Shown piece by piece: positions 380-59,340 of a stretch of DNA of 64,000 bases. This stretch comes from Euglena gracilis. Taxonomy: Eukaryota. Within the stretch, counting starts at the first letter, position 1. Each line of letters starts with the position of its first letter. The position numbers were made by a program, and so were the translations under genes. Under the pieces are notes generated by a model. That model was not told where the DNA came from. It worked only from the letters and a program-made list of their open reading frames with translations, and made no database searches. The DNA is taken from positions 24,874,954 to 24,938,953 of the forward strand of contig CP154954.1 of the NCBI GenBank assembly GCA_039621445.1. Reading direction: 5' to 3'.

Positions 380-8048
<7,669 letters not shown>

Positions 8049-9934
8049 CTGAGGACATAACAATGCAACAAATGAAGGAAACAGGAAAGTTGTTCGCTAA
8101 ACGGCTCTGGGGTGGAACAGCGTTGTACTGACAATATAAAAAAAATTACAATAAAAATATTAATATAATAATAGCATATATTAATAATCATCAATATCAT
8201 AATAAAATTATAGCCCTAATGGACTGTGGAAGAACCGACCAGTCTAGACAAAAGATCACTTGCCCAATCTAAAAATAAAAAACTGAACTGGAAGATAAAG
8301 GTAACAGTTACAACCAGGTCAAACAGGGTCACGAGTTAGTATCCCAACGGGGGAAAGCCCTTGCAGCCGCAACCAGGCTTAACTCAACCATTTAGGACAT
8401 CCGTTCAAAAGGAGAGGAGACTGATGCACACATGGCACCAGCACACGCCGTATAACAACGCATTTCTTCATTCTCGTGTATATGCCGGTATAACAGCAGC
8501 CCCCACAAGAAATCAGGCTCAACAACCCACAGGACAACCAGCACTGAGCCTGGTGCACTGCTTACTGGGCCTTCTGAGTTGTATGCTCCCCCCCTCCTGT
8601 TCTCAGATTCACCTCCGGTAGCGAAGAAGAAAAGGGTTAGAGCGAACAGTGGATTGGGAAAGTGTGTGCAGGTCTTCATACCCCTTGCCCTTTGATTTGC
8701 CACCACCCTGACCCTTACCCGCTGTAGCCCATTGATCACCACCCTTGCCTTTGCTAAATCCCTTACAGTGACAGCCACCCTTGCCCATGCCAAACCCAGT
8801 TTGCTGGTCCGGCTGTTTCGGGCTCGATTGGTTCGGGGCAACTGCTTTTTGTGGCCGGTATGTTCACCACACATGTGATGGCAGCAGAAATCGAGTCCTT
8901 GGGGACTCAATTTCTGCTGCCACTGTCAGTGCCAGGCAATCCTTCTGTTCATGACCCTTTTCCTTGCACCAATTGCAGCGGCGCTCCTTGTCCAGGATGT
9001 CCTCTTTTGCCCTCGCCGCACCGCAAGCGCAGCGAAAACTTCGTGGAAAGAGGTTCTCAGGTCTGGGGTTGGTGTGGGGCTTTCCTCAGGTTCTCCTCCA
9101 AGCCTCTGGGTTGGATTTTCGACCTTGCACACAGATCCAGTGCAAACAAAAATTACAGGACACAAAAACTAAAAAAAATTATTGTAAAATGTTTGATTTT
9201 GAAGGTAAAAATTGGGAAACTTCAAATTTTCAGGAAAAATGATGGTAATCCTTTTCAGTTGTGACGAAGATTTTTTGGTACGGTTAACTGAAAATTCAAA
9301 AAAAACAAAATGGACTTCTGGTGGTCTTTGTCGTGATTTCTATTTCGAAATAAACACCCAAAATTGACACTATTACATGACCCAGTCTTTTTGTGTGTGA
9401 CATTTGACCACCCCTGAGAGGGAGCCACAGGAGCAGGAGAATACATTGTACAAAAAAATACGGGAAAAACGTAGGAAATCGGGGCAGTTTCGAGTAATTT
9501 TTGTCCAGATTGTATGAACACTTTATCCCACACAGAGACCTCTTCTCCTCTCCTGCCTCGGCAGCCGCCAGCAGTATGGCGTAGCGCTTGGTGGTTGGGG
9601 CATGGACACAGCAACCACCGTACTAAGGGCGGGGTTTGTTTAGATGATGTGTGGAAGACAGAAAGGAGGCAATTGCTGAGTGAGCTGTTGGCCGGCTGAG
9701 CCGACCCCTCATCACTCACAGACCCCCGCTCAGCTGTGAAGCGGGGGTCTGACTAGCCACCCGATTGCCGCTCCAACCGCCGTGGCCATGAAAGGCACAA
9801 GCCACTTCGTAGAAACTGGGGGTGTGGTCTGGATGGCATCGTCAGCCGTCACCTGGGGTGATGTTTGATTCATGAAAGCCAGGAGGTTGGGTCGACCTCA
9901 AATGCAAGCGTAACATGCAAACAGAAGCTATATC

Positions 9935-10060
9935 AGTTAGCAATGTCACAGAAATGTAACCTTGACCAATACTTACCCCTTTTCTGCACTTTCCCAGAGT
10001 TAGCAATGTCACAGAAATGCAACCTTGACCAATACTTGCCCCTTTTCTGCACTTTCCCAG
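9935..10060. repeat. 63-bp tandem duplication
   Basis: AGTTAGCAATGTCACAGAAATG...CTGCACTTTCCCAG occurs twice with few mismatches. Confidence 0.95.
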
Positions 10061-11957
10061 CCCCATCCATCTCTTAAAAATTTCCAGGGGGGGCTGCTGG
10101 CCGTCTAAGGCCATTTCCCAAAAAAAATTCGACAATTCGCGCCGAAACCCAAAAAAAAACCCAAACCCCCCTGGGGGGGGTCCGGGGGGTCCCACCCCCT
10201 CCTCCCCCCAGGGGGTCTTCTGACTTAAAATGAAGCCTGGCCTCATGCAGGATCCCCCTTTTTTGTGGGTCCTGTTGAAATTTTTTGAAAAGGTTTCAAA
10301 AAATTTTAAAATTGTATTCCGGGGGAGGGGTTAGGAGGCGGATGGGGAAACAAAAATACTGGTAGATAGGGCTGCCAAGGGCTTTGTTTTGGTCGCCGGA
10401 CATTTCCTTTGATTTTGTTTCATTTCCGAGATATTTTAGAAACATCGATTTTTTGACCCCGAGAACAATATGGCCCCAGAAATCGGCCAAAATTGGCCAA
10501 AAATGGCCATAACTCGGGCTGCACGAAGTTGGGAAGGATGGTTGGAAAGGGCATTCCAAGAGGTTCTTTCTTGTCTCCAGATATTTCCTTTGGTTTTGCT
10601 TTATTGTGGAGATATTTTGAAAAAAATATTTTTGACCAAAAAAAACCGGTCCAGAAAACCCCCCAAAAATGACTGTTTTGGGTCACAAAACCGGGCCGGA
10701 ACATGAGCCAGGCGTGTCGGCGGCCAAACAGCAAATGGGGGGGGGGGGGCGATAGAGGGTACATTTCAAATAACTCCAGGGGGGCATTTCGTCTGGCACT
10801 TTCGGAAATAATATACACATTTTTGAGATACTTTTGAAAAATCGATTGGTTTACCTACAATCTCACCCCAGTGAAATGGCAGGGTCGAAACTGGGGGGGA
10901 TTAATTCTACCCAGTTTGGCCCCTTGTCGGCTGAATAAATCGGGCCTGGCGGGAGTTGGGGGTCAGAGGTGATTTAGAAAGCCGGGATCCAGTCACTGAC
11001 CCCCCACTATTACCAAAGCGCCGGACGAAATTTTTTGTGCTCAAAATTGGCCAAAAATTGGCCAAAATGCCATTTTTGGTGTGGTTTGGGCAAACATTTG
11101 TCAAAATTGCCCCACATTTTCAATGCAAAGTGCCAGAATCGACCCCCCCCCTGGGGGGGAGGGATAGATGGGAAGCCCTTCGCTTTTGAGGTTTGAAAAG
11201 GTGTCCTCTGGTCGGGGGGGGGTGGCTGTTGGAAATGGAGGTCATTAGACATAGGGGGGGGGTACCACATCCACCACCACCACTACCATGACCACCGCCA
11301 TGACCACCGCCACCTAATAAATGACATCAGCAGCAGCCGCAGCAGCAGCAGCAACAACAACAATGATGAATTTGTCCCAGATATGTGTCCAGCAAATGGA
11401 TACCAAAGATTTGAGTCTGCTGTAAAAAGGCTGCTAGCTGACGTGCAAAATCCCCCAAGAAAAATAGAACATGGCAACTTTGAAGCAAACAAGGAAGCAT
11501 TTTCAGTGCCAATTTCAGGCAGAAAATATGTTGTAAGCTGTTTTTGGATCGTCGTTCGTTGTTTGCTTCGTGAATCCTTAATAACCAGCCCTGTTCAGAC
11601 TCGGTGGGCATACTTGGTGTTTTTTGGTGGTTTGGTGGTGGCCTGCAAAAAGGAATGATATTTGAATTACCGCTGCGTGTTTCTGGAAGGGAGATGCTTC
11701 CACTGTGTGCACTGCTGAATGGTCTGTGTGCAGCACTGAAGAGCATCGAGCGGCACCAGAACGCCGCCCACATGCCAAATATTAGGTGCACACCGCCTAA
11801 TTGTAACAATTTGGGGTGCCACACAGTCAACGCGTGCAGTGTGCAGGCATCTGCAGTTGAATCCTCATCCCAAAATCCCAAACACACAAATGGTGGGCAA
11901 AAAAACACAAAAAGATTGGCACAGAAAATGTCAAAGCAACAGGGAGGAAACAGGGAC

Positions 11958-12281
11958 CTGCGGAGGATCGAGTCGCGATGGAGGCAAATGGCTGAGGGAC
12001 AGGTGCACGGTCCACTGCCACCACGGGCTGCGCGTGGACGGTCCACCGCACGCCACTGCCGACGTTCGCCACGGCAGGCTGCGAGGAAAGTTCACATTGG
12101 CTTCTGGGTAGGCACGTTGGCCATGACTGTTGAGGCTCGGGCCACTTGGGCAACGAGCTCAGGGACGACCACCCCCAGTGGGACACACCTCTGGGTGCCA
12201 GGGCAGAAGTGCTGTGGTCAAGAGGGCAACAACCACGGCGCAGCCCAGCGGCCCGGACCACCGCGCACCGAAGAGCACCAT
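11958..12281 (-). CDS. Probable first two exons of the glyoxalase gene, encoding a signal peptide plus a transit-like peptide
   Basis: ATG at 12281. Exon 12281-12189 = MVLFGARWSGPLGCAVVVALLTTALLPWHPE, then a GT-AG intron (12188-12079), then exon 12078-11958 = PAVANVGSGVRWTVHAQPVVAVDRAPVPQPFASIATRSSA and a GT donor. A further candidate exon near 8970-9038 reads FAALAVRRGQKRTSWTRSAAAI. Linkage to GLO1 is inferred. Confidence 0.6.
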
Positions 12282-12884
12282 CGTTAGGCCTCAGCGGGAC
12301 ATGCAAGTCCTTCAAGGAGCAAGGGAGCGGCCGATGAGGTGGGGAGGAAAATGGGCCACATCGGCGCTGGCACCGTGCAACATCGCGGTGGGCCAGGCAA
12401 AGCCCATCAAAGTCACGAGAGCGACAAAAGTGTTCCCTTTGCGGATCACATAACACCACTCCTCCAAATGGTGCCGCTCTCGTTCCCCCCCCCCGCCCGG
12501 GTCAACGTCACCACAGTGACGCAAAACCCAACAACAAGCACAAGGTTGGGTCCAAAATCTTCTCTTTGGAGGCGGGAACCCCGGATTAGGGCAGGGAGGA
12601 GGATGAGAACTCCGAGACGTCTTGGAGGAGGAATGCAATGCAGTCCGCGCTTTGCATGCCATCTACTCACACAAGAAAACGATAAACAGCCTATGGGCAG
12701 CATACAGGCTGAATCAGACTTGGAAACCCCACATGAGAAAAAAACCCTCCTTGGCTGTGGGACCCCATCAGATCCCACCGTGCAGGTCCCCTCCGCACAC
12801 CCTCCCCCCAATTATGAATCTCTTGGCTTGTCATCGTCATTTCTGGTACCAAAATCAATCAAATTTCCATCTGCGCTCGGGGGT

Positions 12885-13938
12885 CAAGGGGGGGATATGC
12901 AACAAGCCCCTCAAAATATGCAATGCAAAAAAATGCAAAAAAGTGCAAAGAAACATGCAAAAAAATATATATATATATAAAAGTTGTATATAAATTCCTT
13001 GAGGAGCTCCCCGGGGATATACACTTTTCCACTGGAGAGGTGTAAATTTTCTCCTTCCTGAGGAAAGGTTTTTCACTTTGCAACATTCTTTTGCCATGCA
13101 ACATGGTGCATGTTTTGGGCAATCACAGCTAACGCCCCTGTTGTTGGCATGGATTGACATTGTAAATGAAACTCCAGAGAACAGGTTTTTTTTGGAACTT
13201 TTTGACAGAGTTTTTGAAAAGTTTTCAAAAATTATCTGAAAATTTTGACAACATTCGCAAAATAATTTGACAGACTTTTTTGAAAAAATTGACACAAAAA
13301 TCGAGCCAGTGATTTGTCCAATGGGGGCAAATTCTTCAATTTTGCCAAAAAAGTTTGAAACGTCTTTTTTCCCCAAAGACCCTGTCAAAAAGTTTCCAAA
13401 AAAACCTGTCAAAAAGTTCAGGAGATTCTGAACGCTTCATAAACTGTGTCATTTCTTTGCAAGAATTAGTCAATCTGTTCCAAGAATAGATTGCGCCAGC
13501 TGTGGATATACGAACTTTTATTTAACAGGACACAAAAAAAAACATGAACAAAACAGTGTCTGCGCACTTTTTCAAAAAAAAATTCAAAAAAATTCACCAA
13601 GGAACACCACACCAAAAAAAGTGTGGTGCAAACTTGCAAAGTGACATGATTTGCCCAGTTGCATGCATTTACATTTCATAGTGCAACAACCGTTAATGTG
13701 AAATGGTCCAAAAATGTCTAAATACAACTTCCATCTGGTGAGAGAGCAGTTTGCCTGTGCAATCGTGCAAAAAAGGTCGAAAAGGTCAAATAAGCAAAAA
13801 AAAAAAATGCAAAAATGCGACTTTTTCAAAAAAAAATTCAGTGGACAGAATGAAAACGATGCAATAAACTGCACGTTTTCAAGATTTTTGATTATCCAAA
13901 AAAATGCAAATTATGCAACTTGCATATTTCCCCCCTTG
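12885..13938. mobile_element. About 1-kb AT-rich element with terminal inverted repeats
   Basis: CAAGGGGGGGATATGCAA ... TTGCATATTTCCCCCCTTG. No clear TSD and no coding capacity recognised. Confidence 0.55.
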
Positions 13939-14479
13939 CAGGTCCCTGTGCCGGGGAACCACCGTTTTACCCTTGTAACAGACAGTAAGGAGACGACAGC
14001 AGGCCGACCTTGGGCTTGAGCACACTCGAATACCTATCCCGGGGAACAGAATCAATCGGTTTCCGGTTTGAGGGCCAAAAGGCCGTTTCTTATATGACCA
14101 GGTGACCATACCCAGGGGTACCCACATTTGGGGTCCCAGAGCACCCATCCAGATTCCTTCAAACTTTGCAGGTTTTACGACATGCGCATGTTTTTCACAC
14201 CTGTAGACACTAAAGACAGCACACTTGAATACCTATTCCAGGGAACATAATGGGAACCCCCAATCGGTCACTGCTACACACAAATGGAACGAATGTCATC
14301 AGGTAGTTTCCAGGTTAACATCCTTGGAAATTTCCATGGCCAGAGTGTTGAAGCGGATACCTCAAACAGCGTGAGGTCCATGCTCCCAACCGAAATCTGA
14401 TCAGAAGGGGATGACAACCCCTTCTGACCTGCTGTTCTGGGACAGGCTTTCTGCAGTTCTCTGTTCGGCGAGGCTACTG

Positions 14480-17400
14480 TACCACAACGATGTGGCGCTG
14501 AGGGTTGGGCATCAGCCGGCGGGGCCGACAGCAGGCTGAATTTGACCAACTCCAGGGGGGGGGTCTCCGAATGCCATGGAGTGCCCTCCCCTCCCCCCTG
14601 GGGGTCAGTGCCTGCCTTGCCGTGGGCCAGAAACGGGCCAAAAGAGGCCTTTCAGGACTTGTGCACTGGCGTACCTTGGCCGAGTGCCCATTCTTGGCCA
14701 TGTGCACTCCCGTGCTGAGGGGGCAGTCGGATCTGGGTGCCTTGGAGAGCCTCCCCAGCGGATATCCGCCACCAGGCTGAGGTCGCCCATGCCGTAAAAT
14801 TCAGCCGGGCCAGGAGAGGGGGGCCTCCAGTGGCAGCTTCGACTCCCCTCAAGGAGGGCGGGGTCAGGGTTTTTTTTAAGACCGGGGGGGGGACCCCCAC
14901 CCCCCCGCCCCCTGGGGGCTCCCCAGGGGGGAGCCGGCAGAACCCACAAAATTTGGCAAAAAAATCGCAAAAAAGTGTTAAAAAAGCACCTTTTCAAAAA
15001 TTCGGCACCGAAAAGTATATCCCACCCCCTCCGGGGGGACCCCCGGGGGGGGGGGGGCTCGGCCGGACCCACCCACCATACCCCCCCCCCGGGGGTCCAC
15101 GACTAAAAAAAACTCCTGGGCGGGGAGCGGCGGGCAGAGGGCGGATGGTGACACACAGCGGTGTTTTGGGCGGGGCTGAGATGCAAGGCGTCGGCCCGGT
15201 GGTGCGCGGGTTGGGCCCAGTGGCAATCCAGGGCTTCCGGAAGGGGGGGGTGGGGGAGGGGGAGTGGCTTCTGGTGCGTAGGGCGTTCGGGGTGATTGAT
15301 GCGTAGGGCGCTCAGGGTGATTGATAAAATCGGCTGGCGTTCGGGATGGTGCTTCGGATGCACTCCAGCCGGGTGTTCTGATGCACATTCCGGAACTGAC
15401 CGCCAAGGTTGGGGGCAAAGACCGCATGGGGCTCTCATTCAAGCTTGGGGGGCGAATGGCACAAATGATCACTCACAATGTGACAACGCGAAGAAGAAGC
15501 AGAGGCCAGGTTGTGCGGTGCAGGAAACGGGGGAGCAGGGGAGCGGAGGACGGCGAGGGGGAGCCTTCTGGAGCCGGCGAGGGGCGACCAGGGCTGCACG
15601 GGAAGGCCTGGGGGTCGACCCCCCCACCCGGGATTTGTGAGGGGGTTTTTTTACAAATTTTTCCTCAAAAGTTTTTGGGGTCGAAAATTGGTGCTCCCGG
15701 AAATACGGGAGGTGGTGGGGGGGGTCGATCCCCCCAACCCACCACCTTGGCCGATTCCCGTACTGCCCTGGGAGCAACTGGAAATCATCCTTCCGGCGGA
15801 GGAGGGCACGGCAGGTTGGGCGGGGAGGACGAACGGCCCAGCAGGGTCCAGGGCGGTCCTTGACATGAAAGGTGGAAAAAATGCCGTCCCCCCCATGCAA
15901 TAAAAACAGCATTTAAAAAAAGAGGTCGAAAATAATTCGCATGGTTTGACAAAGAGGTCGATATTGGGGGGGGGGGGGCTTCTGGCATCCTTGGACCATC
16001 GCCAATCCACCCAAAACGTCAAAAGAAATGCCGATTTCGACCTGTTTCCGGCCCCGGATGGCCCTTGGGCCAAGGGGGGTTTTAAGGGGCGCTCCATAAT
16101 TCCAAAAAAAAACTTTTCCTGGAAAGACCGATCTGCCGGGGTCTGTCTGTGTAGCCATGGTGCTGGCCTCAGGGCGTCGGGAGAGGAGGACGGGGGGAGA
16201 AGGTAGAGGGGGGGAGGGCACCACCCCCTGCGTGGGCTGCGGGGGCTGTGGCACGGAGGCGGGGGGGGGGGAGGGAGGGTGGGCTGGTGGTGGTGGCCGG
16301 GGGTGTTTGAGACCACGCGCCTCCCCCGCAGGACGTTGTTTAAGGGGGACTCTGGGCCTGGCCTGGCCCAGGGCCATACACGGGGGGGGGGGGGGGCCTG
16401 GATGCACCCACCCACCAATCCAGCACCGAGGGTCAACCTTTAGAGGGAGGAGGATTGTGGGATCTTTTGCAGACCGAAAGATTAGGGGGGGGTCGCTGAG
16501 CTCTTATCCCTTTTTAGGTAAGAGCGAGGCTTACCCCTGGGGAAAAGGGGGGGGTCGGACCCCCGCCTTCCCCCCCCCCGGGTCGGGGCCACCTCAGGAA
16601 CCAGCGAATTATCGCCATGATCCCAGCTCCGTTCCCGGAATTTTTTTTCAGTCGCGAGCGACTGGATTTCTAGTTTCTGAATCACCTCCGTTTGACCCCA
16701 ACTCCCCACCAGGTCCAGGTTATTCACGCGCGAAGGGGTCCAAACTGGGTAGGATTGTCCCGCCCCCCCCCCCCTCTTCCGACTCTGCCATTTGCCGGGG
16801 TCCAAAAATCGGTCAAAAAAATGATTTTTCGAAAATATCTCGAGAAACGAAGCAATGTTTTTTTGGCCTCCCGGACCCGGAAAACCTGCTTTTTGAGCTG
16901 AAAATGAGCGTTTTTCGACCTGCAGCCCGTTTTTGGCCCGAAACCCATTGGCTTTGGGTCAAAAACGGGTCGAAAAAGGCGAAAAAAATCGAGAGAAAAA
17001 AATGCCCGAAACGATGTTTTTTGGGTCTCCCAGACCCGGCTATTTTTGAGCCGAAAATGAGCGTTTTTTGACCCGCCAGCACCCCGTTATGGGCGCAAAA
17101 CCGAAGGAGTTTGGGTCAAAACGGGTCAAAAACGGGTCAAAAAAGTCGAAAAAAAATCGAAAAAAAATTCGCGCGAAAGGATGTTTGCCTCCCGGACCCG
17201 GAAAACCTGTTTTTGAGCCAAAAATGAGCGTTTTTCGACCCGCCAGCGCCCCGTTTTTGGGCCTGAAACCCAAGGACTTTGGGCCAAAGACGGGTCAAAA
17301 AAAGTCGAAAAATCGGGAAAAAAAATTACCCGAGATGATGCTCTTCGGCCTCCCAGACCCGGAAAAAAGTGGTTTTGAGCCGAAAATGAGCACAAAAACG

Positions 17401-20400
17401 TACCAAAAATTGCTTCCCACAACTCCCGAGTCCGTTTTTGGTTTTACAGTGAAAAACCGTGCAAGGTACAGAGCTCAGCACTATTCAAAACCTGGTTATC
17501 CTTGGAAAAAAAAATACTGGCAGCGAGATGAATAAAAAAAATCTTGCTGCCATGTCGGCGGCAAGGTAGTGTGAGGAACCCAAAAATTTCTTAAGGTGAA
17601 TTTGACAACCTTAAAAAAAGAATGCATTAATATTTTAATACAGCTTGAAAATCATCTTTAAATTTAATGCATCTTCAAAAATTCATTAATTATTTTGCTC
17701 AACTGTCTTAATGTGCTTTGAGATGCTCAGGGGATCTATTTGAAAGAGTGATCTGGGAAGAATCTTTCTGGACTGAACACATTTGTGCTCTGGCTGAAGA
17801 CACGTTCTGCTCCCCTGCAACCAGCAAGTGGAGGGAGGAATCGCAAGACAAGGTGGATGAGAGGGGGAGTGATAGGGTCGGGACGGAGCTGCCGCTCCAA
17901 AGGCTCCAAGCGACCAATGTGGCTCGGCTTGGGGTGGGGGGAGAATGTTTCTGGAAAAAACACTTTGGGAGAAGGGGCCCAGGCAATGTGGAACAAACCA
18001 GCCAAGAAAAAAAAGAATAGAACAACTCGTCACCTCCCATCTTCCATCATTTTCTGCCCTTGCCTTGAAATTGTGCAACAATATTTCTCTGAATTTTCTG
18101 AATCTGAAACCTCAAAAGGTAACATTGTACTTTTTTGGCTTTTTTAGAAGCAAATGTTGTTTTCGCACCAAAAATGTTTTTCTGTCTGGCACAGGACATC
18201 TGCCTGGGCGATCTGGACCCCCCATGTGGCAGGGGTAAAACAGAAGTCTGGATTAAAGTGATGAAAACTCCATATGCAAATCCGCATCAACGATCACAAC
18301 GAGGAAAACACTGTGCAACGTGGCGAGGGCATGTTTGGGGTGAAAAATCTGCCGACCAGGCAACCGGGAAAAAGGTCACCCGAAGCGCGGGCTGAAGGAG
18401 GGGGAGATGGAAAGCGGCAGTCACGGCGTTGCAGGCCAGGTCCGAGGCCTCTGTGGAGCGGCACCGACGATGCGGCACCCGGGGAGGGGGGCAGGCAGCC
18501 GTGGTGGAAGGGAAGGGCCAGGAATACCAACACTGACCCCAGGCGAGCGCTTGGGCAGAGTGGGAAAAAAGATTATGATAGTTGCCGATCCAAGACAAGA
18601 TTCAAACGGCTCCAAAAAATTCAACGTGTGCATATTTTGGGCTTGCGCGGGGGGGGTCAATTGGAGAAGGGGTCTGAAAAAAGGTCGATGGGCACCCGGG
18701 ACTCCACCCCCCAAAAGGGTCAAATTTTTCCTTCCGGGGCTTTGTGCTGAAAGTTTGAGCTATTTTACATATTTTTTGCTCAAATAGTGCCAAAAATGAC
18801 ATTTAAGCAAATTCGTGGCCGATTTGGGGGAAAATGTTTCGGTCAAACGCTTCATGACCGGCCAAAAAAAAAATGGCCAAAGATCCGAAAAGGTGTCCTC
18901 GCTGGGGGGTGGTCATGGGACATGAGGGGGGGGGGTCGTTGAACATAAGTGGGGGGGGGGGGTTCCTGGCAGGTTAGGCCACATCATCTCAGTTATGTTG
19001 AGACTCTGTCGCCCAGCCGTCAGTAAAAACAATGCAAGTCTGTCTGGGGTGAGAGAATTAATGCCCAATGCTTTGAAACTGTTTTCTCTCCTGTGCGGTT
19101 CTGTCTTGATTTAGAGGGTTCGGTCGCGGGCACAAATTGACCAATTATTCCAAGAGGAAAATACTGAAGGCCAGAGCAGAGTGGATGCACGGCGTCTGGG
19201 AGGGGTAAGAAAGCGTGTCAGGGCATTGCATTACAATGGGATACCCTGCACTTTCTTTGGCCCCCTGAATTTTGGGGCCCAGGTGGGGATGCAACAATTT
19301 GCTGCAGATTTCACTGCAGCAAATTTGATCATGCCTGATTTTTCCTCCCTGGTGCAAACACCAAAAAATATAAATTGTGTTGGGATTGGTTCAGCAGGTA
19401 TGGGGACTCTGGATAAGGAGCGGCCCGCCCTGCACCGCGCACACGCAAACCAGACAGCAGACATACATCAGCACTGGAGTCCCTTTTCTGCTTCCCCATC
19501 TTGCCTTTCTGCCTCTCCCCCTCCCTCGGACCTTGGACATTTAGCCGCTGGCCCCTTGAGCATAGCCACAAAAACACACAAAAAGAAAAGGAGTAAGTAA
19601 CCGAGAGGAGGCGCAGGCTCAAAAGCTGAACAAGGCAGTGACACTGCAGCGCACCACAACATCACAGCACTGAAAAAGCTCAGAACACTTTGTCACTCCC
19701 AAGAAACTGCACATAAACAGGAAACACTGAAAAAATATATATTACGACTAAGAACCTCAGAAAATGCAGAAAACTTTTGGGGAAGAAATCCAAACTTGCG
19801 GGGGTTGTGGGGCGGAGCACTTTATTTTGTTTCCTTTTGTGAACAAAATAAAAGATGAGCCCATTAAACAAACAATCCATTTCAAGCACAAGAAAGGGAC
19901 AGCCCACTCGCAGAAAGTCATCACAGCGAGAGAGCAGGGCGGACAGGAGAATGATTGCATGAGCAAACCGAGGGGTTGCGAGCAGGCTTTTGTTTAAGGA
20001 CCCGGGGGGGGGGGTACCGGCGGCTAGCCAAACGGCTAGACACTGGAAAAAGTGGACTAGCTAGCCCCCCCTCCCCCGGGGGGGGGGGGGGGGTCCGGGG
20101 GTCCCCCGAACTGGAAAAAATTTTCTCGGCGCTGCGCGCCAGAGGAAAAATGAGGTTTTTAATAGGTTTTTGGCTGATTTTGTTCCAAAAATTCCCAAAA
20201 ATGGCCAAAACCGGGCATTTTGGCCATTTTGGGGGGTCTCAAAAAAATTTCGGCGCTTTGCGCCGATCACTGGAAAAAAATTTCCACTAGCTAGCCCTGC
20301 TAGCAGACCCCCCCCCCCGGGGGGGGTCTGCTAGAAATCCCACTAGCCAAATTTGGACTAGCTGCAGTCCAGCCCCCCCCCGGGGGGGGGGGGGGTACTG

Positions 20401-23400
20401 CAATCCCTTAAGCAAAAGCCTGGTTGCGAGGTGGGTGGGTTGGCGAGCAGCGGATGGGACAGCTACAAAGATGGGAACGCCTCTGTCCACCAGCCAAGTC
20501 ACAGGGCAAAGGGCAGGCTGGAAGGACACAGCCAGGCAGGAGGGGGCAGCTGGGGAAACAATTGGTTGGAAGGAGCTTTTTTTTGCCCACCTGCCTGCCT
20601 GTACGAACAACATCGTTGCCCCAGTGGTGGGCAGGGAAGGCCTTTTTGGCGGTTGGAAAATACAACTCATTGATGGGGGGGGGGTCCGAGGCTGGAAACA
20701 GGCTGTTGCTGTTGGCTGGCTGGACCCCTATTGGGGGGTGGGTCAATTTTTCTTGACCTCCGCCCTGGCACCAAGGAAATCCTCGCAGACGCTGCACAGA
20801 GGCGCCAATCACATGTTGCAGAAAGCAGCGATGCAGCAAGCGACTGAGTTGGGTCTCACGGCTCAGACTGGCACTAGGATGCTGAGTGACGACCAGAAAC
20901 AGAAAAGAATTCGCAATTGAACAATCATTTTGCCATCACTTTTCTGCCCGTGCAGTGTGATTCCATGCTGGGACCTGACACACAATATCACAACAATCAG
21001 GCTTTGGCTTACCCCCCAATGTCCAACGACCGGTAGCCTTCTGTCCTCCAACCAGGGGGTGGTTGCTAGACATAGGGTTGTGACCAAAGATGGTGTTCTC
21101 CAACTGGGCGGTGGTCGTTGGACAAGGGGTCCAAAACAAAAAGGTCGACAGATACCTGAGACCCCCCCAAAATGTCAAAATTTTCCTTACAGCACTTCAA
21201 GCCGAAATTTTGAGGAAATCTGACAATTTTTTGCCCAAAAAGTACCAAAAAAAGGCACTTTGGCCAAATTTTGGCAAATTTTGGGCTCAAAAATTTTCGG
21301 CCCGGTGCGCCAGGACCAAGAATCTGGCCAAACCTCCGAAAAGGTGAAACCTCCAACTAGGGGGGTGCCGTTGGACATAGGGGGTAACCAACATATCCAG
21401 AATATCCGGGGGGGAGGGGCTCTGTTATAGGGTGCCTGCCCAAAATAAGACTGCCAGAAAAGGTCGGCTCTGCATCTGGACCAGGCTGTTTTTTTTACCA
21501 ACCCCGGGGGGGGGGGTCCGGAGTGCCTGCCCAGGTAAGCACTACCCCCCCCCGGGAGGTCAGATTTCGGCCTGTGCCCAGGCACATTCCTTTGAAAATA
21601 GGCCATTTTTGGCTCCCCGGCGTCTTCGGCGCCGGGGTTGTGATAGGGCACTTTTGGCCGTGTGCCCTACCCCTTAGTTGCACTAAGGCTTCTTGTCTGT
21701 TTATGGCCGGCGCTAGCTTCGCTTCTGGCCCAGTTTGCTGCGTGGTGAGTGGCCAGGTACCCCTAACACCAGTCCTCTTTTGTTGCTCCCCCTGGCCGGG
21801 TGAGTAACTCTGGTGTAATTCCAGCGCTGTAGGGACATACACTCACCTTGTGTGGTTGGTGTGGTTCCCGTGGGTGGGTCTACACCCTTGCGCCCCAGTG
21901 CTGCTCTTGCCTCCTGCCCTCTTCCCACTTTTCTGTGTGGGGGATGCATGGCGCAGGCACAACGCCATGACTTGAAAAATTACAATGTGGCCTCACGGTC
22001 CCGCGGCTTAGGTAAACCCGGGTCACCAAGTCTCGGCCTTAGGGCGGGTGGCGGGTGGGTAGTGTGCTGCTGGGTACCAGTAGTTCCTTACATACTGGTA
22101 CCTGCGCTCCATGCCCTGTCCGGGGTTGGTTTGGGCGGTCCTCTGCCTCCGGGACCGGACTTGGAGTGCCTTGGAGTGCCTGCCCATGCCCAGGCAGGCA
22201 CCCCCCCCCCCGGTGTGGGGTCGGCACCCGACTAAAATACGGCCTGATCTGGACGTGGTAGGACTACAAAATTGAACCTTGAAAGTCGCCTGTTTAGGGC
22301 CTGCACGGGCTTCACCCCCTCCCCCTCCCCTGCCCCACGGCTTCTCAACCCGGGGGTCATGTGCATTGCCTTAAAACGACTGGTGGCACGTGGGGGGGGG
22401 GGGGCTTCAATCAGCCAGCGAAGCTACAAACTTGAGGATGCATAAGAGGGAGGAGCACACACAGCCTTCTGTCCAGCGGTGTGGGGTGGGGAGGGGCGAG
22501 CTACGAGATGAAGGGGAGGAGCCGGAGGGCGATGGACACGAGAGCAAGGGAGGTCCGAAGCGTGCAATTGCTGGCCGGCATGAGGAGGAGGGTCGCTTGC
22601 AAAAACAAAGTTCCCCCGCAAGCTCCACAAGACAAGGAGTAGCGACCACTTTAAGGAAAAGCGAGCACCCCTCATGCAACTCCCACTCAGATTTGGAGGG
22701 GTTGCTGAAAATGGGTGACAAACTCTATGAGAGAGAAAATCAAGGCACCTGTCAACCATTTTGCAGCCAAATTCATCATGAAACCTTCTGAGAAGCCAGC
22801 ATGTTGAATATTTTGCCTGGAAACCCTCTCCACAGAAAAGAACGATCCAAGCTACCAAGGCCATCTGTTTGCTTGCTTTCGGCCACTTTTTAGGTGGGGG
22901 GGTCCCCCCCACCTGCCCTTTTATCGAAGCCTGGGGTCTGACTGACTTCTCTCCGGGGCATCGCTCAAACTAAAGGGGACGGGGGTTCTTGTGAGGTGAT
23001 CCACCAGGGTGTCCCAATAGTAGAATGGGGCATTCCTCATGATTTGCCATTTTTTGGGATTCAGATTGGGCAGCAATAATAAAGATAGAAATAGTAATTC
23101 AGTCGTCAGAGTTGGGTTCGAGATTTTAATTCTGCCCAAAGGGTGGGTGGATGGTAATGGTAAGCAAAAGTTTTTTTCCCCTTTGGGAGGTGAAAAAATG
23201 GACCAAAATGGATTAGAAAAAAGGGGCTGGGGACACACAATCACTTGGTCACTGGCCGGCCCCCTCCCCCCGGAGGACAGAGTGACTGATCAGTCTCTGG
23301 CCTGGACCCCCTCCCCGGGGGGGGGGGTCAGCTCCAAAGTGACCTGGAATTGTTTTTGGCTTTTTTACATTTATGGTCGGATTTCTCTTGGATTCCAGAG

Positions 23401-26400
23401 TGGCCAATCCCTCCGGGTAGTGACTGACTGGTTTTCCGGGGAAAAAAGTGTATGAATGGTTTTTGGAAGAGTAAAAATGACCCTCTCCGGGGTTCGATAA
23501 AACACTGTGTGGCTGGGTCAGCCAGGCAATTTTTTTGTCCTTTTTTGGTGAAGGAGCTGCAACACACACCAAGCTGAACCGTTGCTGGGCATGTGGGTTC
23601 ATGTGTGCAAAATTTTGTCAAGATGCAAAAAAAAAACTCGGCGCAAAGCGCCAGAAGGAAAATTTTGACCTTTTGGGGGGTGAGGGGAGAGGGGGGACAC
23701 CTCCCACTTAAACCCCATACACCCTTCTTTCCTCGAAGCCTGTCAGGCCCCAGCCAGCGCGAACAACTGCACGGGCAGGACGTAGAGCAAGAACCCCGAG
23801 GCCTTCAGCACCCAGTTGTCCGACTTGGCCTTGGATGGGCTCCGGGCTGGGCAAGGCTGGCGCAGAGGGGACCCTGACCTCAGACCTCCACAGCCTCGGG
23901 GGACAATTGGGGATGAGACCACAGAAATGCGGGGGCAGCCGGGGCAGAACGGGAAAGACAGGAAGAACCCTCACCCAGGAGGTGGGGGGTGACGCCCCCA
24001 CCCACCACAGCATCTTCACAGATTTTTAAACAAATTTTTCCTGGCGCCAAATTTTTGGGGTCAAAAATTGGTGCTACGGAAATACGGAAGGAGGTGGGGG
24101 GTCGACCCCCCCCCCACCCACCACCCTGGCTGTTTGGCCGATTCCCGTTCTGCCCTGGGGGCAACCAGGAACAACACAGCCGTGGAAAGGCTCTGCATCT
24201 CTGAGGAGATTCCCCTCACTGGTGGGATCAGGCCTTTGCTTAAAGACCCTCGGGGTGGAAGGGGGCGGTCGGTGTCAGGCACGCGACAAAGGAAGCGGCC
24301 CGGAGGGCCTGTCCAGACTTCCACAGCGGTTGATCCAGGTTGCATTGTGCACCGCTTGAATGCGGGTTTCCATCTGTTGCCGGGAATGGAGGTTTGGGGA
24401 GCATCACGTTCCCGCCCTCTCGATGGTTGTGTGGCAAATTAGTGGGAGGGGGCAAATGGCAGTGACTCAATGAAGGATTCTGGGTAAGTCCCGGTCTTAT
24501 GCAAAAGAATTGTTTAAACAATTGACAAATGTGGGCAGGAGATTACTCAAACAAGCAGGAGGCAATAGAACTGGAAGAAACTTTCTTGCAACAAATTTTT
24601 TACAGGGAGATAATTTTTTGAATTTGAATTGGTTCTTTTGATGAGTTCTTGGCTGAGTATGGAAGCTTTATTTTATGGCGAGCAGTTGTAACAAGCAAGA
24701 ATGAGTATGCAGAATTCCTGTTCATGTTTCTAAACCAAAAGAGTGGTCCAAAAAAAGCAAAAAGTCAAAATACGAACACAGAAACGACTCTGCGGTGCCG
24801 ATTTCCCCCTCCCTGTCAAAAGGATTTAAATCTTAAATCTACTATCAATGACATTTAAAACCAATGTCACCATTTCATGGTAGATGCTAGCACGTTGGCA
24901 TGGTTGGTGCTGCAACGCAACACCCAGATAATCACCCTAAGAAAAAGAAATGCACCAAGTGCCACAGGGGGGGTCAGGGTTCAAGCTTGGAAGGTGACAC
25001 CAGGGAGGATGCATATGGAACTCCGAAGCGATTGCGCAAGAAACTGCATTTAAAAACTGGCGGCATCGTTAACGGGTGAGCTTCGCTGACTTTCATTCAG
25101 TTTTCCCTGAAAATTGAATCACTGGTCGAGTGCTTGAAGGACTGCCCACTATCTGATCCCTGGCTTGAATGCCTCTAGGGATGCCCTTCGATGCAACATC
25201 CACTGTGCTGTGTTGCACGGTGTTGGTATGTACCGCATTGGCTGCCAACCTCCCCACCGTACTTGCCACCCCCCCCCCCATGTGTTGCCCAACTTGTCGC
25301 CCCCGGTCAGTGGCCACCAATTTGTGCTGCCGAACGTCAATCAGCCCTTCCCCTCCCCCCGGGGGATCATGAAGCAGTGGCATCCCCAGAATGCTCAAAG
25401 AATTTGTAAGAGCGAAGCCCGGGCGGGCCTCCAGCAGGGGCTGCTCCGGCTCGGGGATGGCGGCGGACGGGTCTGTCAGCCGCCCGTCGTGGACAGCCCG
25501 GGCGTCCTGCTGGGCAGATTGCGGGGCGGCGGTCGCGGCGGCGGCGACCAGCCGGGTGGTGGCGGGGCCGCGGGCGGGGAGGGTGGGCGACCGCTGGGGG
25601 TGGACGGGCGGGTGAGGGGACCGGTGGGCGGAAGCAATTGGCAACAATTTGCAAGTCATCAGAGGACAGATGAGGGAGCGAGTGCAGAAGATACGGGTTT
25701 GGTGTGTACCTTTCCAGGGGACCAGGGGCGTGACTGGTCAACTGGAATCAGTCACTGTTCACCGGCATGACTTTTGAGGAGGCTGTTCTGAATCTGAGAA
25801 GGGCAGATTTCAACACCTTCCCAAACTGCTCCTGGAAAAATCAGTATTCAGGAAAGCAGCTGACGATGCTTGTGGCAAATATTTTTGTTTGGATTTAAAC
25901 AAGAATGCTGATGCGAGAGGTTTTCAGAGGGTGTCAGCGCCAAGAGCACGGAAATCCTTGACTTTGAAGAATGAACCCTTGTGTAGAGACAATTCTTTAA
26001 AAGGGTAACAGAAAAAAATGCACAGCGCTCCATTTGGTGCCAGAAACGAGCACTCATTTTTGAGAAATAGCCAAATGTGACAAGGGACAGCTCTGTTGAA
26101 AGATCCAGCACTTTCCTTTCAAATCTCTCCAGCGCTGTTGGAGGAGATGGAAAAACCACCTCCTCGGAGGGAAAATTGTTGAAATGCGACATGGTTTGTG
26201 TCTTCAAAAATCATATATCAAAGCAGCGTCTGACGAACGTTTCCAGAGAATTATCAAAAATGCACAGCCAAAAGTGGCATATTCTAACAAGAAATACAAA
26301 ATATAATGCACGGCTTGGTTCTGCCAACCCCTGGATGCGCTTAATGTGGGGGGAAATAATACATTTCTTCAAAGTCCCTAAAGACTCCCAGAGGTTCAGC

Positions 26401-32109: not shown

Positions 32110-32161
<52 letters not shown>

Positions 32162-32995: not shown

Positions 32996-33030
<35 letters not shown>

Positions 33031-34930
33031 CCAACGACCTCGCAAACCTTTGTGGGTGTACTTGGTGCGGCCCTTGAATGCCATGATCTCATGGTTGCCC
33101 AACAGCTGAATAAGGGCTCCTCCGGCTGCCGTCGCTTGCCGCGCCATCTTCTTCAAAAGGTCCAGTAACTGATGACGGCAGACAATCCGTCACTGACACG
33201 TTTACAGTTGTGACGAAGCAAGAGCCATGGTACAAAATACATCTGCATGAACGGATCAATCGAGGGAACGTGGGGAAACGATCACAGAAAACTTTGCTGT
33301 GGCAGAGCGTTTCCCTGCACTTCTGCTGGGAACAGGGCGTTGCTCGAAGACCTTACCCAAGGTGGTCCAGCTGAGGGGCTGGAAAAATTGGGCTGGCTGT
33401 AAAAAAAAAAAGGCTGCTGGCTGACCCCCGACTGATCCCCAGCTGGAACTGGGCCAGACTGGGGTCAGGGGATTTCTTAAGGACCCCCCAGGGGGGGGGG
33501 GGTTCCAGCCTCCGGCTGGCAAAAGGCTGCTGGCTGGAAATGAGCTGCTGGCTGGACCCCCCCCCGGGGGATAGGGGGGGAGGGGGGGTCTGGGGCTGGA
33601 GGGGGCTGGGCTGGGCTGGGTCGATGAAAAACAAAAAATTTTAAAACATTTTTGTCTTCTTGACATTTTGATGGACCTAGATCAAGGCTGGGGGCTGTGA
33701 TGGAGGAAGCTGTGATGAGGGGAAAAAAAAATGCAGGGATAGGTGTGCTGGGCAGCCCAGTTGGCTCAGCCAGCCCAGCCAGCCTGCGGCTGGCTGGCCC
33801 GGCCTCTGGCCGGGCTGGACCCAACTTTATTTCACTTGACCCCCCGGGGGGGCTCCCAGCCCAAATTTGGGCTGCTGGCTGGATGTGAGCTGCTGGCTGG
33901 CTGGACACCCCCCCCCTGGGGGATGGGGTCCCCTCTGGCTTAAGGAATCCCCTGCTGGGGGTCGAACCGGGTCCAAAAACCAAAACTGCAAAAATGCCCA
34001 AAAAACTGCCAATTATACAACAAAAAAATACATTTTTTTGCCCAAAATCTGGTCAGCCTTCTTCGAAAGCAAAAAAAATACAACTTCGGTCAACATTGTC
34101 CTTTGGTGCCGAAGAAACGTTTGCGTGCACAGCGACATGGCAGGTGGGGGGGAGCGACAGGTGGTCCAGAGCAGGGGTTTTTTTAAGACCGGGGGGGAGG
34201 GGGGTCCCCCCACCCACCCACCCCCTGGGGGGGGGGGGGCCGGGGGGGGAGGGGGGTCCGGGGGACCCACAAAAAATGGCCGAAAAATCGCGAAAAGTGC
34301 TAAAAAAAAGAATTTTTTCGGCGCCTGCGGCGCCGAAAAGTATATCCCACCCCCCTTCGGGGGGACCCCCCCCGGGGGGGGCTCGGCCGGACCCCCCCCC
34401 CCTACCCCCCCCCCCGGGGGTCCAAACTTAAAAAAATCCCTGGTCCAGAGCAACCGGCAAGGGAACACACCTGGCGCGAGTCCGGGCCGCGGTCCACCAC
34501 GTCCCCGGTCTGCACCAGCACCGCCGGGCCCCCCCGCCAGTTCCCCTTCGCGTCGGTCAAATTGCACAGGCGGAGGCAGCGCAGAGCGTTGCGGAGGTCG
34601 CCGTGGAGGTCGCCGAGGGCGAAGAGCCGCCCGCCGGGGACGAGCGGCGCCGACGAGGAGGGCAGGCGGCGGGGGCAGGCCCCGGACGGACGTTGTTTGC
34701 AGGAACCGGCAAAAAGTCCAGCCCAGGGCTGTGGGGGGGGGGGGGGGCATGGGGCCTTGGCAGACAATCGGTGTGCAAGTGGGTAACGTTCGTTAACTTA
34801 AGAGGGTTGTTGTAACCACCCTTGGCAGCGTAGGGAGGCCGATACTTCGCTGGGCTGTACCCCTTTTGATGCTGCAAAAAAAAAAATCAATCAAGACAGG
34901 AGAGGCCTGGGAAGAGGATCAGGACAAGGG
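30024..34930 (-). CDS. Shewanella-like (SLP/Shelph) PPP-family metallophosphoesterase, multi-exon; first exon not located, 3' end may extend to 29170
   Basis: Exons: 34930-34913; 34670-34471 (RLFALGDLHGD...LVQTGDVVDRGPDS); 33168-33048 (QLLGNHEIM); 32454-32324 (SLFVHAGV); ~31525-31457 (ADDGPSWS); ~31040-30901 (RLVVGHTIQ); 30428-30359 (LIAIDVSIS); 30275 onward (IAAVEV). The PPP motifs GDxHG, GDxVDRG, GNHE and HAG, then GHT and IDV, occur in order. Confidence 0.9.
30276..30358 (-). other. Short nonconventional intron in the SLP gene
   Basis: 5' CCC-CAGGC ... GCCTG-CCACC 3'. Excision gives KLGGDH|IAAVEVV. Confidence 0.8.
31077..31344. mobile_element. hAT-like MITE, family B, apparently inside an SLP intron
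   Basis: CAGGGGTTTTTATAAG...AAAAGAAAAACCCTG with flanks GCTTCAAA/GTTTCAGA (6/8). Confidence 0.85.
33466..33954. mobile_element. hAT-like MITE (GGCTG-rich interior)
   Basis: CAGGGGATTTCTTAAG...CTTAAGGAATCCCCTG with flanks CTGGGGT/CTGGGGGT. A related copy lies near 58067-58360. Confidence 0.85.
34172..34442. mobile_element. hAT-like MITE, family B, perfect 8-bp TSD
   Basis: GTCCAGAG-CAGGGGTTTTTTTAAG...CTTAAAAAAATCCCTG-GTCCAGAG. Confidence 0.95.
34671..34912 (-). other. Nonconventional intron in the SLP gene, following an 18-nt micro-exon
   Basis: 5' TCC-CAGGCCTC ... GGGGCCTG-CCCCC 3'. The join gives LVLILCRLPSSSAPLV. Confidence 0.7.

Positions 34931-37352: not shown

Positions 37353-59340
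<21,988 letters not shown>

What the first reader, a model, noticed from the sequence alone, without database searches (positions are those of the whole stretch)
14480..15843. Three more MITEs in series separate short GC-rich islands that stay open after 3+5 excision
Removing 15773-15584 continues the previous frame: ...SSAGRMISSC|PSPAPEGSPSPSSAPLL. Removing 15121-14860 and 14811-14527 gives ...SARRSP|PSLRGVEAATGGPPLL|APPADAQPSAPH; a second frame is open until just past the last element. Four elements of four families within 1.7 kb would be a burst of intron gain in a low-complexity protein tail. Caveat: GC-rich DNA is stop-poor, so open frames are only modest evidence.
Basis: partly seen in the sequence, partly recalled or inferred. 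Interest (0 to 1): 0.75.

Follow-up and report, generated by a model that had tools for sequence, protein, structure and literature searches.

The report
Euglenid MITEs in a noncoding spacer
Three small transposon copies carrying the end-signals of Euglena-type unconventional introns sit in a weakly transcribed, apparently non-coding gap between two genes, which is ordinary for this kind of genome and does not show new introns in a protein.

Summary
The three elements are real. E1 (15584-15773), E2 (14860-15121) and E3 (14527-14811) are short terminal-inverted-repeat elements of three families. They have diverged copies elsewhere in the window, 8-bp target-site-duplication-like flanks, and DNA-run depth in their bins hundreds to about 1,500 times single-copy. 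The window is euglenid. That rule is confirmed here on two homology-checked introns of a glyoxalase I gene.

The "protein tail" reading fails:
- No single frame stays open.
- The two open frames (177 and 197 aa) are no longer than dinucleotide shuffles give (P=0.31).
- Codon-position GC is flat, against 0.66/0.46/0.87 in real exons.
- Pfam and a search of 1.84 billion proteins give nothing real.

The cluster lies in a repeat-dense spacer of about 11 kb between an upstream gene's inferred stop (~23.74 kb) and the glyoxalase start codon (12282). Island 15122-15583 is present in RNA contigs at about 10-15% of the glyoxalase level. Splicing of the elements could not be read.

By the published code only E2 is fully competent. 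E1 lacks the exon purine. E3 has CCG in place of CAG, and one RNA contig shows it unspliced.

The parts
15584..15773 (-). E1: 190-nt excision unit. The MITE proper is 15589-15770. Ends read TCC|CAGGGCAGTACGGG...CCCGTGCAGCCCTG|GTCGC, and the next exon base is C.
   Evidence: Copies at 24023-24159 and 4309-4469. TIR 14/20 and flanks GTTGCTCC/GTCGCCCC 6/8. The RNA fold pairs the two ends, z = -4.87.
14860..15121 (-). E2: 262-nt excision unit. The MITE proper is 14865-15118. Ends read GCC|CAGGAGTTTTTTTT...AAAAAAAACCCTG|ACCCC, and the next exon base is G.
   Evidence: Copies at 34172-34443, 31077-31336 and 62098-62176. TIR 14/20 and flanks TCCCCGCC/ACCCCGCC 7/8. Fold z = -2.63, but the ends are not paired in the minimum-energy structure.
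14527..14811 (-). E3: 285-nt excision unit. Ends read GGC|CCGGCTGAATTT...AAATTCAGCCTG|CTGTC. The 5' motif is CCG where the family has CAG.
   Evidence: The full family copy at 36741-37226 has TIR CAGGCTGAATTTGA. E3 has TIR 14/20 and flanks 5/8. Fold z = -0.19. An X15 RNA contig at 14503-14679 is colinear with the genome across the 3' boundary.
15844..16124 (-). E0: the fourth element, from the previous finding. Ends read TTC|CAGGAAAAG...CCGCCCTG|GACCC. The two ends are unlike each other, so it may be composite.
   Evidence: TIR 8/20 and flanks 4/8. Its 3' end resembles the TIR of the element at 54647-54947. Partial copy at 29800-29928.
15122..15583 (-). Island 1: single-copy GC-rich spacer between E1 and E2. 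It is transcribed and not coding-like.
   Evidence: Every frame has a stop, and codon-position GC is flat at 0.59-0.70. X15 RNA contig 15244-15390 matches exactly at depth 18.6, and two contigs at 15515 sum to depth 30. X1 DNA depth at 15515 is 164. No true homologue.
14812..14859 (-). Island 2: 48-nt spacer between E2 and E3.
   Evidence: Only a self hit. One of its three frames has a stop.
15774..15843 (-). Island 0: 70-nt spacer between E0 and E1.
   Evidence: Sequence. Translations.
12189..12282 (-). First coding exon of the downstream glyoxalase I gene. ATG at 12282 has an in-frame stop 4 codons upstream. It encodes a signal-peptide-like MVLFGARWSGPLGCAVVVALLTTALLPWHPE.
   Evidence: A 585-nt X15 contig (depth 188) has listed pieces at 7884-8047 and 11957-12078. 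Its remaining stretches are placed at about 12189-12264 and in the 9.4-9.8 kb region by inference from variant rows of the same depth. Translation.
4274..4472 (-). Control: an E1-family copy whose CTG+N5 end is the 3' splice site of homology-checked glyoxalase intron 4974..4274.
   Evidence: Flanks GGAAGGGA/GGAAGGGG 7/8. The junction GMTL^GWRNL fits homologues.
34167..34445 (-). Control: an E2-family copy with a perfect 8-bp duplication CTCTGGAC. It lies about 25 nt inside an apparent GT intron after a metallophosphatase exon. The donor CAG|GTGTGT is read from the sequence only.
   Evidence: Pfam Metallophos on 34405-34797(-).
23629..23870 (-). Inferred last coding exon of the upstream minus-strand gene. 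All three frames meet a stop within 23700-23880.
   Evidence: GC3-periodic segment 23746-23871. Translations. The extent is inferred from the 831-nt X15 contig, depth 102.7.

Best explanation
E1, E2 and E3 are non-autonomous DNA transposons (MITEs) of three families in a euglenid genome. Each starts CAGG and ends CCTG, and each made an 8-bp target-site duplication, a hAT-like pattern.

They landed in a single-copy, GC-rich, non-coding spacer. That spacer lies between an upstream minus-strand gene and the glyoxalase I gene downstream on the same strand.

The element termini (CAG...CTG) plus 3 + 5 flanking bases equal the euglenid nonconventional-intron code. Removing such an element from RNA also removes one copy of the 8-bp duplication and restores the pre-insertion sequence. 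'Open after 3+5 excision' therefore only says that the old spacer had few stops, which its C-rich strand gives by chance.

Shown: MITE identity, the 8-bp duplications, lack of a coding signature, and presence of island 1 in RNA.

Inferred: the spacer is transcribed on the minus strand at low level. E2 is likely excised when transcribed, E1 is doubtful and E3 is mostly retained.
For: Euglenid origin: the glyoxalase exon's best hits are euglenid transcripts at 79-83% identity. Exons of a two-domain glyoxalase I map to 8026-379 on the minus strand.

MITE identity:
- Copies within the window.
- 7 elements in the window have CAG..CTG ends matching at least 11/14 and 8-nt flanks matching at least 6/8. 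The mean over 20 shuffles was 0.1, and 2 of the 20 gave one hit each.
- Perfect 8/8 duplications at 34172-34442, 19983-20422 and 54647-54947.
- X1 DNA depth is 84,000-260,000 in the focal bins, against about 140-350 in single-copy bins.

The code is real here: glyoxalase introns 6536..5859 and 4974..4274 fit N3-CAG..CTG-N5|G and give GT^ESQADF and GMTL^GWRNL, as in homologues.

Non-coding:
- GC1/2/3 of 8 glyoxalase exons is 0.66/0.46/0.87. The islands and both post-excision ORFs are flat.
- ORF length P = 0.31.
- Of 198 ORFs scanned against Pfam, none in 14-17 kb gave a hit and only one elsewhere reached its curated cut-off.
- The only hit among 1.84 billion representatives is a 56-aa tandem-repeat protein matched at 11/23 residues, 12 times.

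Position:
- The upstream gene's frames all stop by about 23.7 kb.
- The glyoxalase ATG at 12282 has an in-frame stop just upstream.
- Expressed pieces between the two show no codon periodicity.

RNA:
- X15/X1 depth ratio is about 1.1 for glyoxalase exons and about 0.001 for silent single-copy bins.
- It is 0.11-0.18 for island 1 and 0.02 for the E3 contig.
- Stranded run X24 gives 0.79 against 0.08 in bin 15339-16005, the same orientation as the glyoxalase gene.
Against: RNA support is thin. There are only a few reads per bin, and 801 of 944 laid X21 reads fit only partly, so most come from repeat copies elsewhere.

Island 1's depth is about 100 times background, which looks more like an exon of a stable RNA than like spacer read-through. 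A real exon-intron chain therefore cannot be excluded.

The opposite strand passes there as well, and the filter also fires inside MITEs.

The extent of the upstream gene's last exon is inferred from variant positions, not from a listed alignment.

The hAT assignment rests on recalled family features. No transposase was found among the 198 ORFs scanned, which are only part of the window's ORFs.
Confidence: 0.65

Rival explanations
1. The elements are genuine, efficiently removed nonconventional introns, but of an untranslated exon chain. That chain could be the 3' UTR of the upstream gene, an alternative 5' leader of the glyoxalase gene, or a long non-coding RNA. The islands would then be real exons without coding function.
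For: Island 1 sits in RNA contigs at 0.11-0.18 of DNA depth, about 100 times silent background. The E3-containing contig is 5-9 times lower. Further non-periodic expressed pieces lie at about 17.85, 18.5 and 19.4-19.54 kb on the same strand. E2 fits the experimentally defined code in full. E1 has CAG/CTG and paired ends. The PNAS 2025 knock-ins show that introns carrying the cis signature, including synthetic ones, are spliced when inserted into an exon.
Against: No RNA joint at the three junctions was displayed. Coverage falls about tenfold between 12.67 and 14.67 kb. E1's acceptor exon base is C with either N5 or N6, and a C variant gave an unstable transcript in the paper. E3 has CCG, and single substitutions in CAG abolished splicing. 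One contig runs unspliced over E3's 3' end.
Confidence: 0.22
2. One reading: the islands are coding exons of a low-complexity protein tail that recently gained four MITE introns.
For: The quoted frames exist and cross the junctions. The second ORF starts with ATG at 15438. A 102-nt stretch shows S-W-S periodicity. Transcription appears to be on the minus strand.
Against: No single frame is open. The first ORF has no Met in the first ~100 codons read (16440-16141), and its one Met lies five codons before the E1 junction. ORF lengths match shuffles. GC1/2/3 is flat. There are no homologues. The upstream gene's frames end about 8 kb away, and the glyoxalase CDS is closed upstream.
Confidence: 0.05
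3. The locus is silent. The RNA signals would come from other alleles or paralogues, or from genomic DNA carried over in the RNA libraries.
For: Read numbers are very small. The 3 X21 reads at 15515 all carry a variant and at least 3 other differences each. X15 is only guessed to be RNA.
Against: X15 contigs 15244-15390 and 14503-14679 match the window exactly. The first stands at depth 18.6. Single-copy silent bins of the same run stand at 0.2-0.4, although DNA depth is similar.
Confidence: 0.08

Closest known systems
Euglenid nonconventional (NC) introns, with code 5'-N3CDG-/-CH'GN5-6|R (PMC12501133; also PMC11282704, PMC3935182)
   Same: CAG at +4..+6 and CTG at -8..-6 (E1, E2). The ends are inverted repeats. 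TSD-like repeats sit at the junctions. The boundaries are not GT-AG. The same rule gives correct glyoxalase junctions in this window.
   Different: Removal from RNA is not shown here. E1 has a pyrimidine at the acceptor exon start. E3 has CCG instead of CDG. The flanks are not demonstrable exons of a protein-coding gene.
hAT-type MITEs (8-bp target-site duplication, short TIRs beginning CAGGG as in Ac/Ds; features recalled, from no call)
   Same: 8-bp duplications, perfect in 3 of 7 census elements. TIRs start CAGG(G). Size is 180-490 nt with no coding capacity. Copy number is high.
   Different: No autonomous partner or hAT transposase was seen in the ORFs scanned. The E3 family's TIR (CAGGC) departs from the recalled consensus.
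Introner elements of Micromonas, Aureococcus and dinoflagellates (described in PMC11282704, passages read)
   Same: Multi-copy TIR/TSD transposons whose insertion can create an intron. Excision removes the element plus part of the duplication.
   Different: Those are spliceosomal, with GT/GY-AG built from the element and TSD. These elements have no GT-AG ends (E1 TC..GC, E2 GC..CC, E3 GG..TC) and would need the euglenid NC pathway.
Non-canonical MITE-derived introns of the tunicate Fritillaria borealis (PMC11282704, passage read)
   Same: Non-GT-AG introns thought to derive from MITEs.
   Different: In Fritillaria they are removed by a modified spliceosome. Euglenid NC introns are reported to leave as circles by an unknown machinery.

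Membership tests
Euglenid nonconventional intron | N3 spacer followed by CDG at the 5' end | tested here: inconclusive
   2 of 3 meet it: E1 TCC|CAG and E2 GCC|CAG. E3 has GGC|CCG and fails. An alternative E3 register (CTG 14804-14802 / CAG 14538-14536) would change the excised length to 277 or 278 nt.
Euglenid nonconventional intron | Complementary CH'G, then N5-6, at the 3' end | tested here: inconclusive
   E1 has CTG+GTCGC and E2 has CTG+ACCCC, so both meet it. E3 has CTG+CTGTC, but its middle base does not pair with the 5' CCG.
Euglenid nonconventional intron | Purine as the first base of the acceptor-side exon | tested here: inconclusive
   E2 has G and E3 has G. E1 has C with N5 and C with N6, so it fails. 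The paper reports a C variant as unstable.
Euglenid nonconventional intron | Terminal base-pairing that brings the two ends together | tested here: inconclusive
   E1's ends pair in the minimum-energy and centroid folds, z = -4.87. The ends of E2 (z = -2.63) and E3 (z = -0.19) are not paired in the predicted fold, although the TIRs match 14/20.
Euglenid nonconventional intron | Actual removal from the transcript (junction reads, or the circular intron) | tested here: inconclusive
   The joint table was filled by repeat joints from the DNA run, with 1016 rows not shown. No RNA joint at the three junctions was displayed. One X15 contig (14503-14679) is colinear over E3's 3' end, with only 24 nt beyond it.
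MITE (non-autonomous TIR transposon) | Terminal inverted repeats | tested here: met
   14/20 in E1, E2 and E3. 11-13/14 in the 7 census elements.
MITE (non-autonomous TIR transposon) | Target-site duplication of fixed length | tested here: met
   The duplication is 8 bp. Focal copies score 6/8, 7/8 and 5/8. Family copies score 7/8 or 8/8. The chance of 6 or more matches is 0.012.
MITE (non-autonomous TIR transposon) | Many dispersed copies; short; no ORF of its own | tested here: met
   Copies in the window. X1 DNA depth in the focal bins is 84,000-260,000, against about 140-350 single-copy. Lengths are 190-285 nt.
hAT superfamily | 8-bp TSD plus a hAT transposase in an autonomous relative | tested here: inconclusive
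   The 8-bp TSD is met. No transposase domain appeared among the 198 ORFs scanned, but these are only part of the window's ORFs and no genome is held.
Spliceosomal introner element | GT/GC...AG boundaries | tested here: not met
   E1 is TC..GC, E2 is GC..CC and E3 is GG..TC at the proposed boundaries.
Protein-coding exon of this genome | Codon-position GC pattern (GC3 far above GC2), an open frame beyond chance, and homology | tested here: not met
   Exons show 0.66/0.46/0.87. The islands show 0.59-0.70 in all positions. ORF P = 0.31. No Pfam hit in 14-17 kb and no true sequence hit.

The most novel reading that the evidence does not exclude
The euglenid nonconventional-intron code may be nothing other than the terminus of active hAT-like MITE families plus their 8-bp target-site duplication. 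CAG...CTG would be the TIR ends, and N3 + N5 = 8 would be the duplication. RNA-level excision would then remove the element plus one duplication copy and restore the empty site exactly.

This window would give family-level evidence for the long-standing, still unproven MITE-origin hypothesis. It holds seven such elements, three with perfect duplications. One supplies the 3' splice site of a conserved glyoxalase intron, after inserting exactly onto an older intron's CTG-N5 site. On this reading E1-E3 are young copies that the NC machinery can clean from any transcript, coding or not.
Probability: 0.45. Interest if true: 0.6.

Novelty: new member of a known kind. Interest (0 to 1): 0.3.

Why it matters
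For the finding itself there is little at stake. It is a MITE cluster in non-coding DNA of a genome whose relatives have most introns nonconventional (71.8% in E. agilis, PMC12501133) and in which repeats fill most of the neighbourhood.

The papers I read still call the MITE origin of these introns a hypothesis. PMC12501133's discussion says 'origins ... remain unclear'. PMC3935182 says that as of 2013 no transposable elements had been identified in euglenid genomes. My three searches found no paper that names such families.

A genome-wide census of these families against annotated NC introns would test that hypothesis directly.

Tried and rejected
- Whole-genome search: no genome is held for this window.
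- The look-up of sequencing runs: no RNA holder listed. RNA runs came only as same-species additions or as small-share rows guessed to be RNA.
- Read laying: I included one DNA run as a control. Its repeat joints filled the joint table, so no RNA joints for the three junctions could be read.
- An X15 loose end at 16261 leads into sequence absent from the window (0 matches with up to 3 mismatches). It lies in a G-run, so I treated it as uninformative.
- A metagenome scan with a 29-nt stretch of island 1 gave 0 matches.
- The search of earlier findings by place, words and sequence returned nothing.
- Rfam: 0 matches at gathering score in the window. There were 3 weak matches far below gathering score in 14000-16600.
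- Pfam on 124 + 74 ORFs gave only Metallophos at 34405-34797 above its curated cut-off. Five other hits fell below their cut-offs.
- The representative-protein search's single hit (E = 3e-17) was rejected as an artefact of a tandem-repeat protein.
- Early idea of a dinoflagellate introner: rejected once the glyoxalase hits pointed to euglenids.
- I ran no further search on the upstream gene's short last exon (42 aa, low complexity).
Full report
**What is there**

On the minus strand the region reads island 0, E1, island 1, E2, island 2, E3. The coordinates are:
- island 0: 15843-15774
- E1: 15773-15584
- island 1: 15583-15122
- E2: 15121-14860
- island 2: 14859-14812
- E3: 14811-14527

A further element, E0, lies upstream at 16124-15844.

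A self-BLAST of the window finds diverged copies of each element elsewhere:
- E1: 24023-24159 and 4309-4469
- E2: 34172-34443, 31077-31336 and 62098-62176
- E3: two parts of a longer copy at 36741-37226

The islands hit only themselves.

Each element begins CAGG (E3: CCGG) and ends CCTG. The first 20 nt of the two ends match 14/20 in all three. The 8 nt on either side match 6/8, 7/8 and 5/8, against a mean of 2.1/8 for random pairs from the same region, where the chance of 6 or more matches is 0.012.

A census of the whole window asked for CAG..CTG ends matching at least 11/14 and 8-nt flanks matching at least 6/8. It finds 7 elements, including E1 and E2, three of them with perfect 8/8 duplications. 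Shuffles gave a mean of 0.1, and 2 of 20 shuffles gave one hit each.

In a DNA run the focal bins stand at 84,000-260,000 depth, against roughly 140-350 for single-copy bins. These are real multi-copy MITEs that make 8-bp target-site duplications.

**Which organism, and what '3+5' means**

No genome is held for the window. A well-conserved exon at 8026-7835 (minus strand) belongs to a two-domain glyoxalase I. Its best database relatives are euglenid transcripts at 79-83% identity, and none is identical. Its exons map from 8026 down to 379.

In euglenids most introns can be 'nonconventional'. A 2025 study defines their code genetically as 5'-N3CDG-/-CH'GN5-6|R(exon)-3' (PMC12501133; abstract and sections 5, 7, 9, 11 read, plus discussion passages). 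A 2024 review places CAG at +4..+6 and CTG at -8..-6, with TSD-like repeats at the junctions (PMC11282704, passages).

I checked the rule inside the window. Two glyoxalase introns, 6536..5859 and 4974..4274, fit N3-CAG..CTG-N5|G. Their junctions (GT^ESQADF and GMTL^GWRNL) agree with the homologues. Three other glyoxalase introns are conventional GT/GC-AG.

The 3' end of intron 4974..4274 is supplied by an E1-family copy (4472-4274). That copy inserted onto the older intron's own CTG-N5 site and regenerated it through its duplication GGAAGGG(A/G).

Because N3 + N5 = 8 equals the duplication length, excision restores the empty site. This is why frames 'continue' across the elements.

**Are the islands coding?**

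The evidence says no.
- The quoted peptides are correct, but they come from two different frames.
- After excising E0-E3, frame 1 is open for 177 aa and stops at TGA 15475-15473. Another frame is open for 197 aa from ATG 15438. No frame is open throughout, and island 1 has a stop in every frame.
- In 1000 dinucleotide shuffles of the excised sequence the longest ORF averages 180 +/- 48 aa, so P(>=197) = 0.31. Stops number 15 against 19.6 +/- 3.3 (P = 0.10). The strand is 41% C.
- Real exons of this genome have a strong codon signature: GC1/2/3 = 0.66/0.46/0.87 over 8 glyoxalase exons. The islands and both ORFs are flat at 0.59-0.72.
- One 102-nt stretch (15178-15279) passes my periodicity filter. 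The opposite strand passes there too, and the filter also fires inside MITEs.
- Pfam on 124 minus-strand ORFs from 9.2-30.6 kb gives nothing in this region.
- The 111-aa island ORF, searched against 1.84 billion representatives, hits one protein. That protein is a 56-aa tandem-repeat product matched at 11/23 residues in 12 repeats, which I reject as spurious.
- Rfam finds nothing.

**Context**

- Downstream: the glyoxalase CDS starts at ATG 12282 with an in-frame stop 4 codons upstream. It opens with a signal-peptide-like stretch. This exon and the next are in a 585-nt RNA contig of depth 188.
- Upstream: a minus-strand gene has GC3-periodic exons at 25411-25527 and 23746-23871. All three frames stop within 23700-23880. 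An 831-nt RNA contig appears to run through that stop; this extent is inferred from variant positions, not from a listed alignment.
- Between about 23.74 and 12.28 kb the expressed pieces (about 19.4-19.54, 18.5 and 17.85 kb, and island 1) show no codon periodicity.
- High-copy repeats occupy 18 of 30 bins of 6001-26000, including nine consecutive bins from 12004 to 18006. Four elements in 1.7 kb is therefore the local norm and not a burst.

**RNA**

I laid two raw RNA runs, one set of RNA-like contigs (X15) and one DNA run on 6001-26000. The ratio of X15 to X1 depth gives a scale:
- about 1.1 for glyoxalase exons
- about 0.001 for silent single-copy bins
- 0.0001-0.007 for MITE-dominated bins
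- 0.11-0.18 for island 1 (an exact contig at 15244-15390 with depth 18.6, and two contigs at 15515 summing to 30, over DNA depth 164)

Island 1 is therefore in RNA well above background.

The stranded run X24 puts first mates on + for the minus-strand glyoxalase gene. It also does so in bin 15339-16005 (0.79 against 0.08), but that is only a handful of reads.

An exact 177-nt contig of depth 3.3 spans 14503-14679. It runs from E3 through the proposed 3' junction with 24 nt beyond. That is below the 31 nt needed to count as bridging, but it suggests that E3 is retained in some molecules.

RNA joints were not readable. The DNA run's repeat joints filled the table and 1016 rows were not shown. 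Most laid raw reads fit only partly (801 of 944 in X21), so they come from repeat copies elsewhere.

**Predicted splicing competence**

- E2 fits the published code fully (GCC|CAG...CTG|ACCCC|G).
- E1 has CAG/CTG and ends that pair (z = -4.87). Its acceptor exon base is C with either N5 or N6, and a C variant gave an unstable transcript in the paper.
- E3 has CCG where its family has CAG. Single substitutions in CAG or CTG abolished splicing.
- The code fits only 61.2% of annotated NC introns, so these are leanings and not verdicts.

**Verdict**

Its reading as intron gain in a protein tail is not supported. My weights are:
- 0.65: MITE copies in a weakly transcribed non-coding spacer, able to be cleaned from RNA to differing degrees.
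- 0.22: real introns of an untranslated exon chain.
- 0.05: a coding tail.
- 0.08: a silent locus.

**Novelty**

The MITE origin of euglenid NC introns is an old hypothesis (PMC3935182, passages). The 2025 paper still calls it unclear. My three literature searches found no paper naming such families.

The window's coincidence of code, TIR ends and 8-bp duplication in multi-copy families is a lead worth a genome-wide test. The hAT label rests on recalled features. Supplements of the cited papers were not opened and may bear on this, for example the direct-repeat length distribution in PMC12501133.

Noticed in passing
window 379-12282 (minus strand): A two-domain glyoxalase I gene spans about 12 kb. 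Its N-terminal extension looks like a signal or transit peptide and is encoded by exons at 12282-12189 and 12078-11958. The gene mixes conventional GT/GC-AG introns with nonconventional ones.
   Followed up: partly
window 4274-4472 (minus strand): An E1-family MITE inserted exactly onto the CTG-N5 3' site of an older nonconventional intron. Its own end plus the duplicated GGAAGGG regenerates a working 3' site, so one-step or nested two-step removal would give the same mRNA.
   Followed up: partly
window 30314-34797 (minus strand): A metallophosphatase gene. Pfam Metallophos hits the first exon. Likely later exons are at 32297-32497, 30909-31022 (GHT motif) and 30314-30499. A perfect-TSD E2-family MITE sits just inside its first intron.
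   Followed up: partly
window 16956-17324: A 167-nt unit is repeated 2.2 times here. DNA-run depth is about 1.6 million in its bin against about 170 single-copy, so there are on the order of 10,000 copies. It is also the most RNA-covered repeat in the laid stretch.
   Followed up: no
window 7884-8047: The RNA contig covering this glyoxalase exon differs from the window at 11 of 164 positions, while other exons differ much less. At 7854 only part of the RNA depth carries the variant. Diverged alleles or homeologues seem to be expressed together.
   Followed up: no
window 1437-2174, 2643-2814, 5235-5484: Long microsatellites are present: (AG)57, about 600 nt of (GT)n, (GCGT)n, and (CAA)83. The last lies inside a conventional glyoxalase intron.
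   Followed up: no
window 19983-20422 and 54647-54947: Two further CAGG...CCTG elements have perfect 8-bp duplications (GTTGCGAG and CCCAGGGG). They are probably recent insertions. The second shares its TIR with the 3' end of E0.
   Followed up: no
window 15272-15321: A 25-nt tandem duplication (88-92% alike) lies inside island 1.
   Followed up: no
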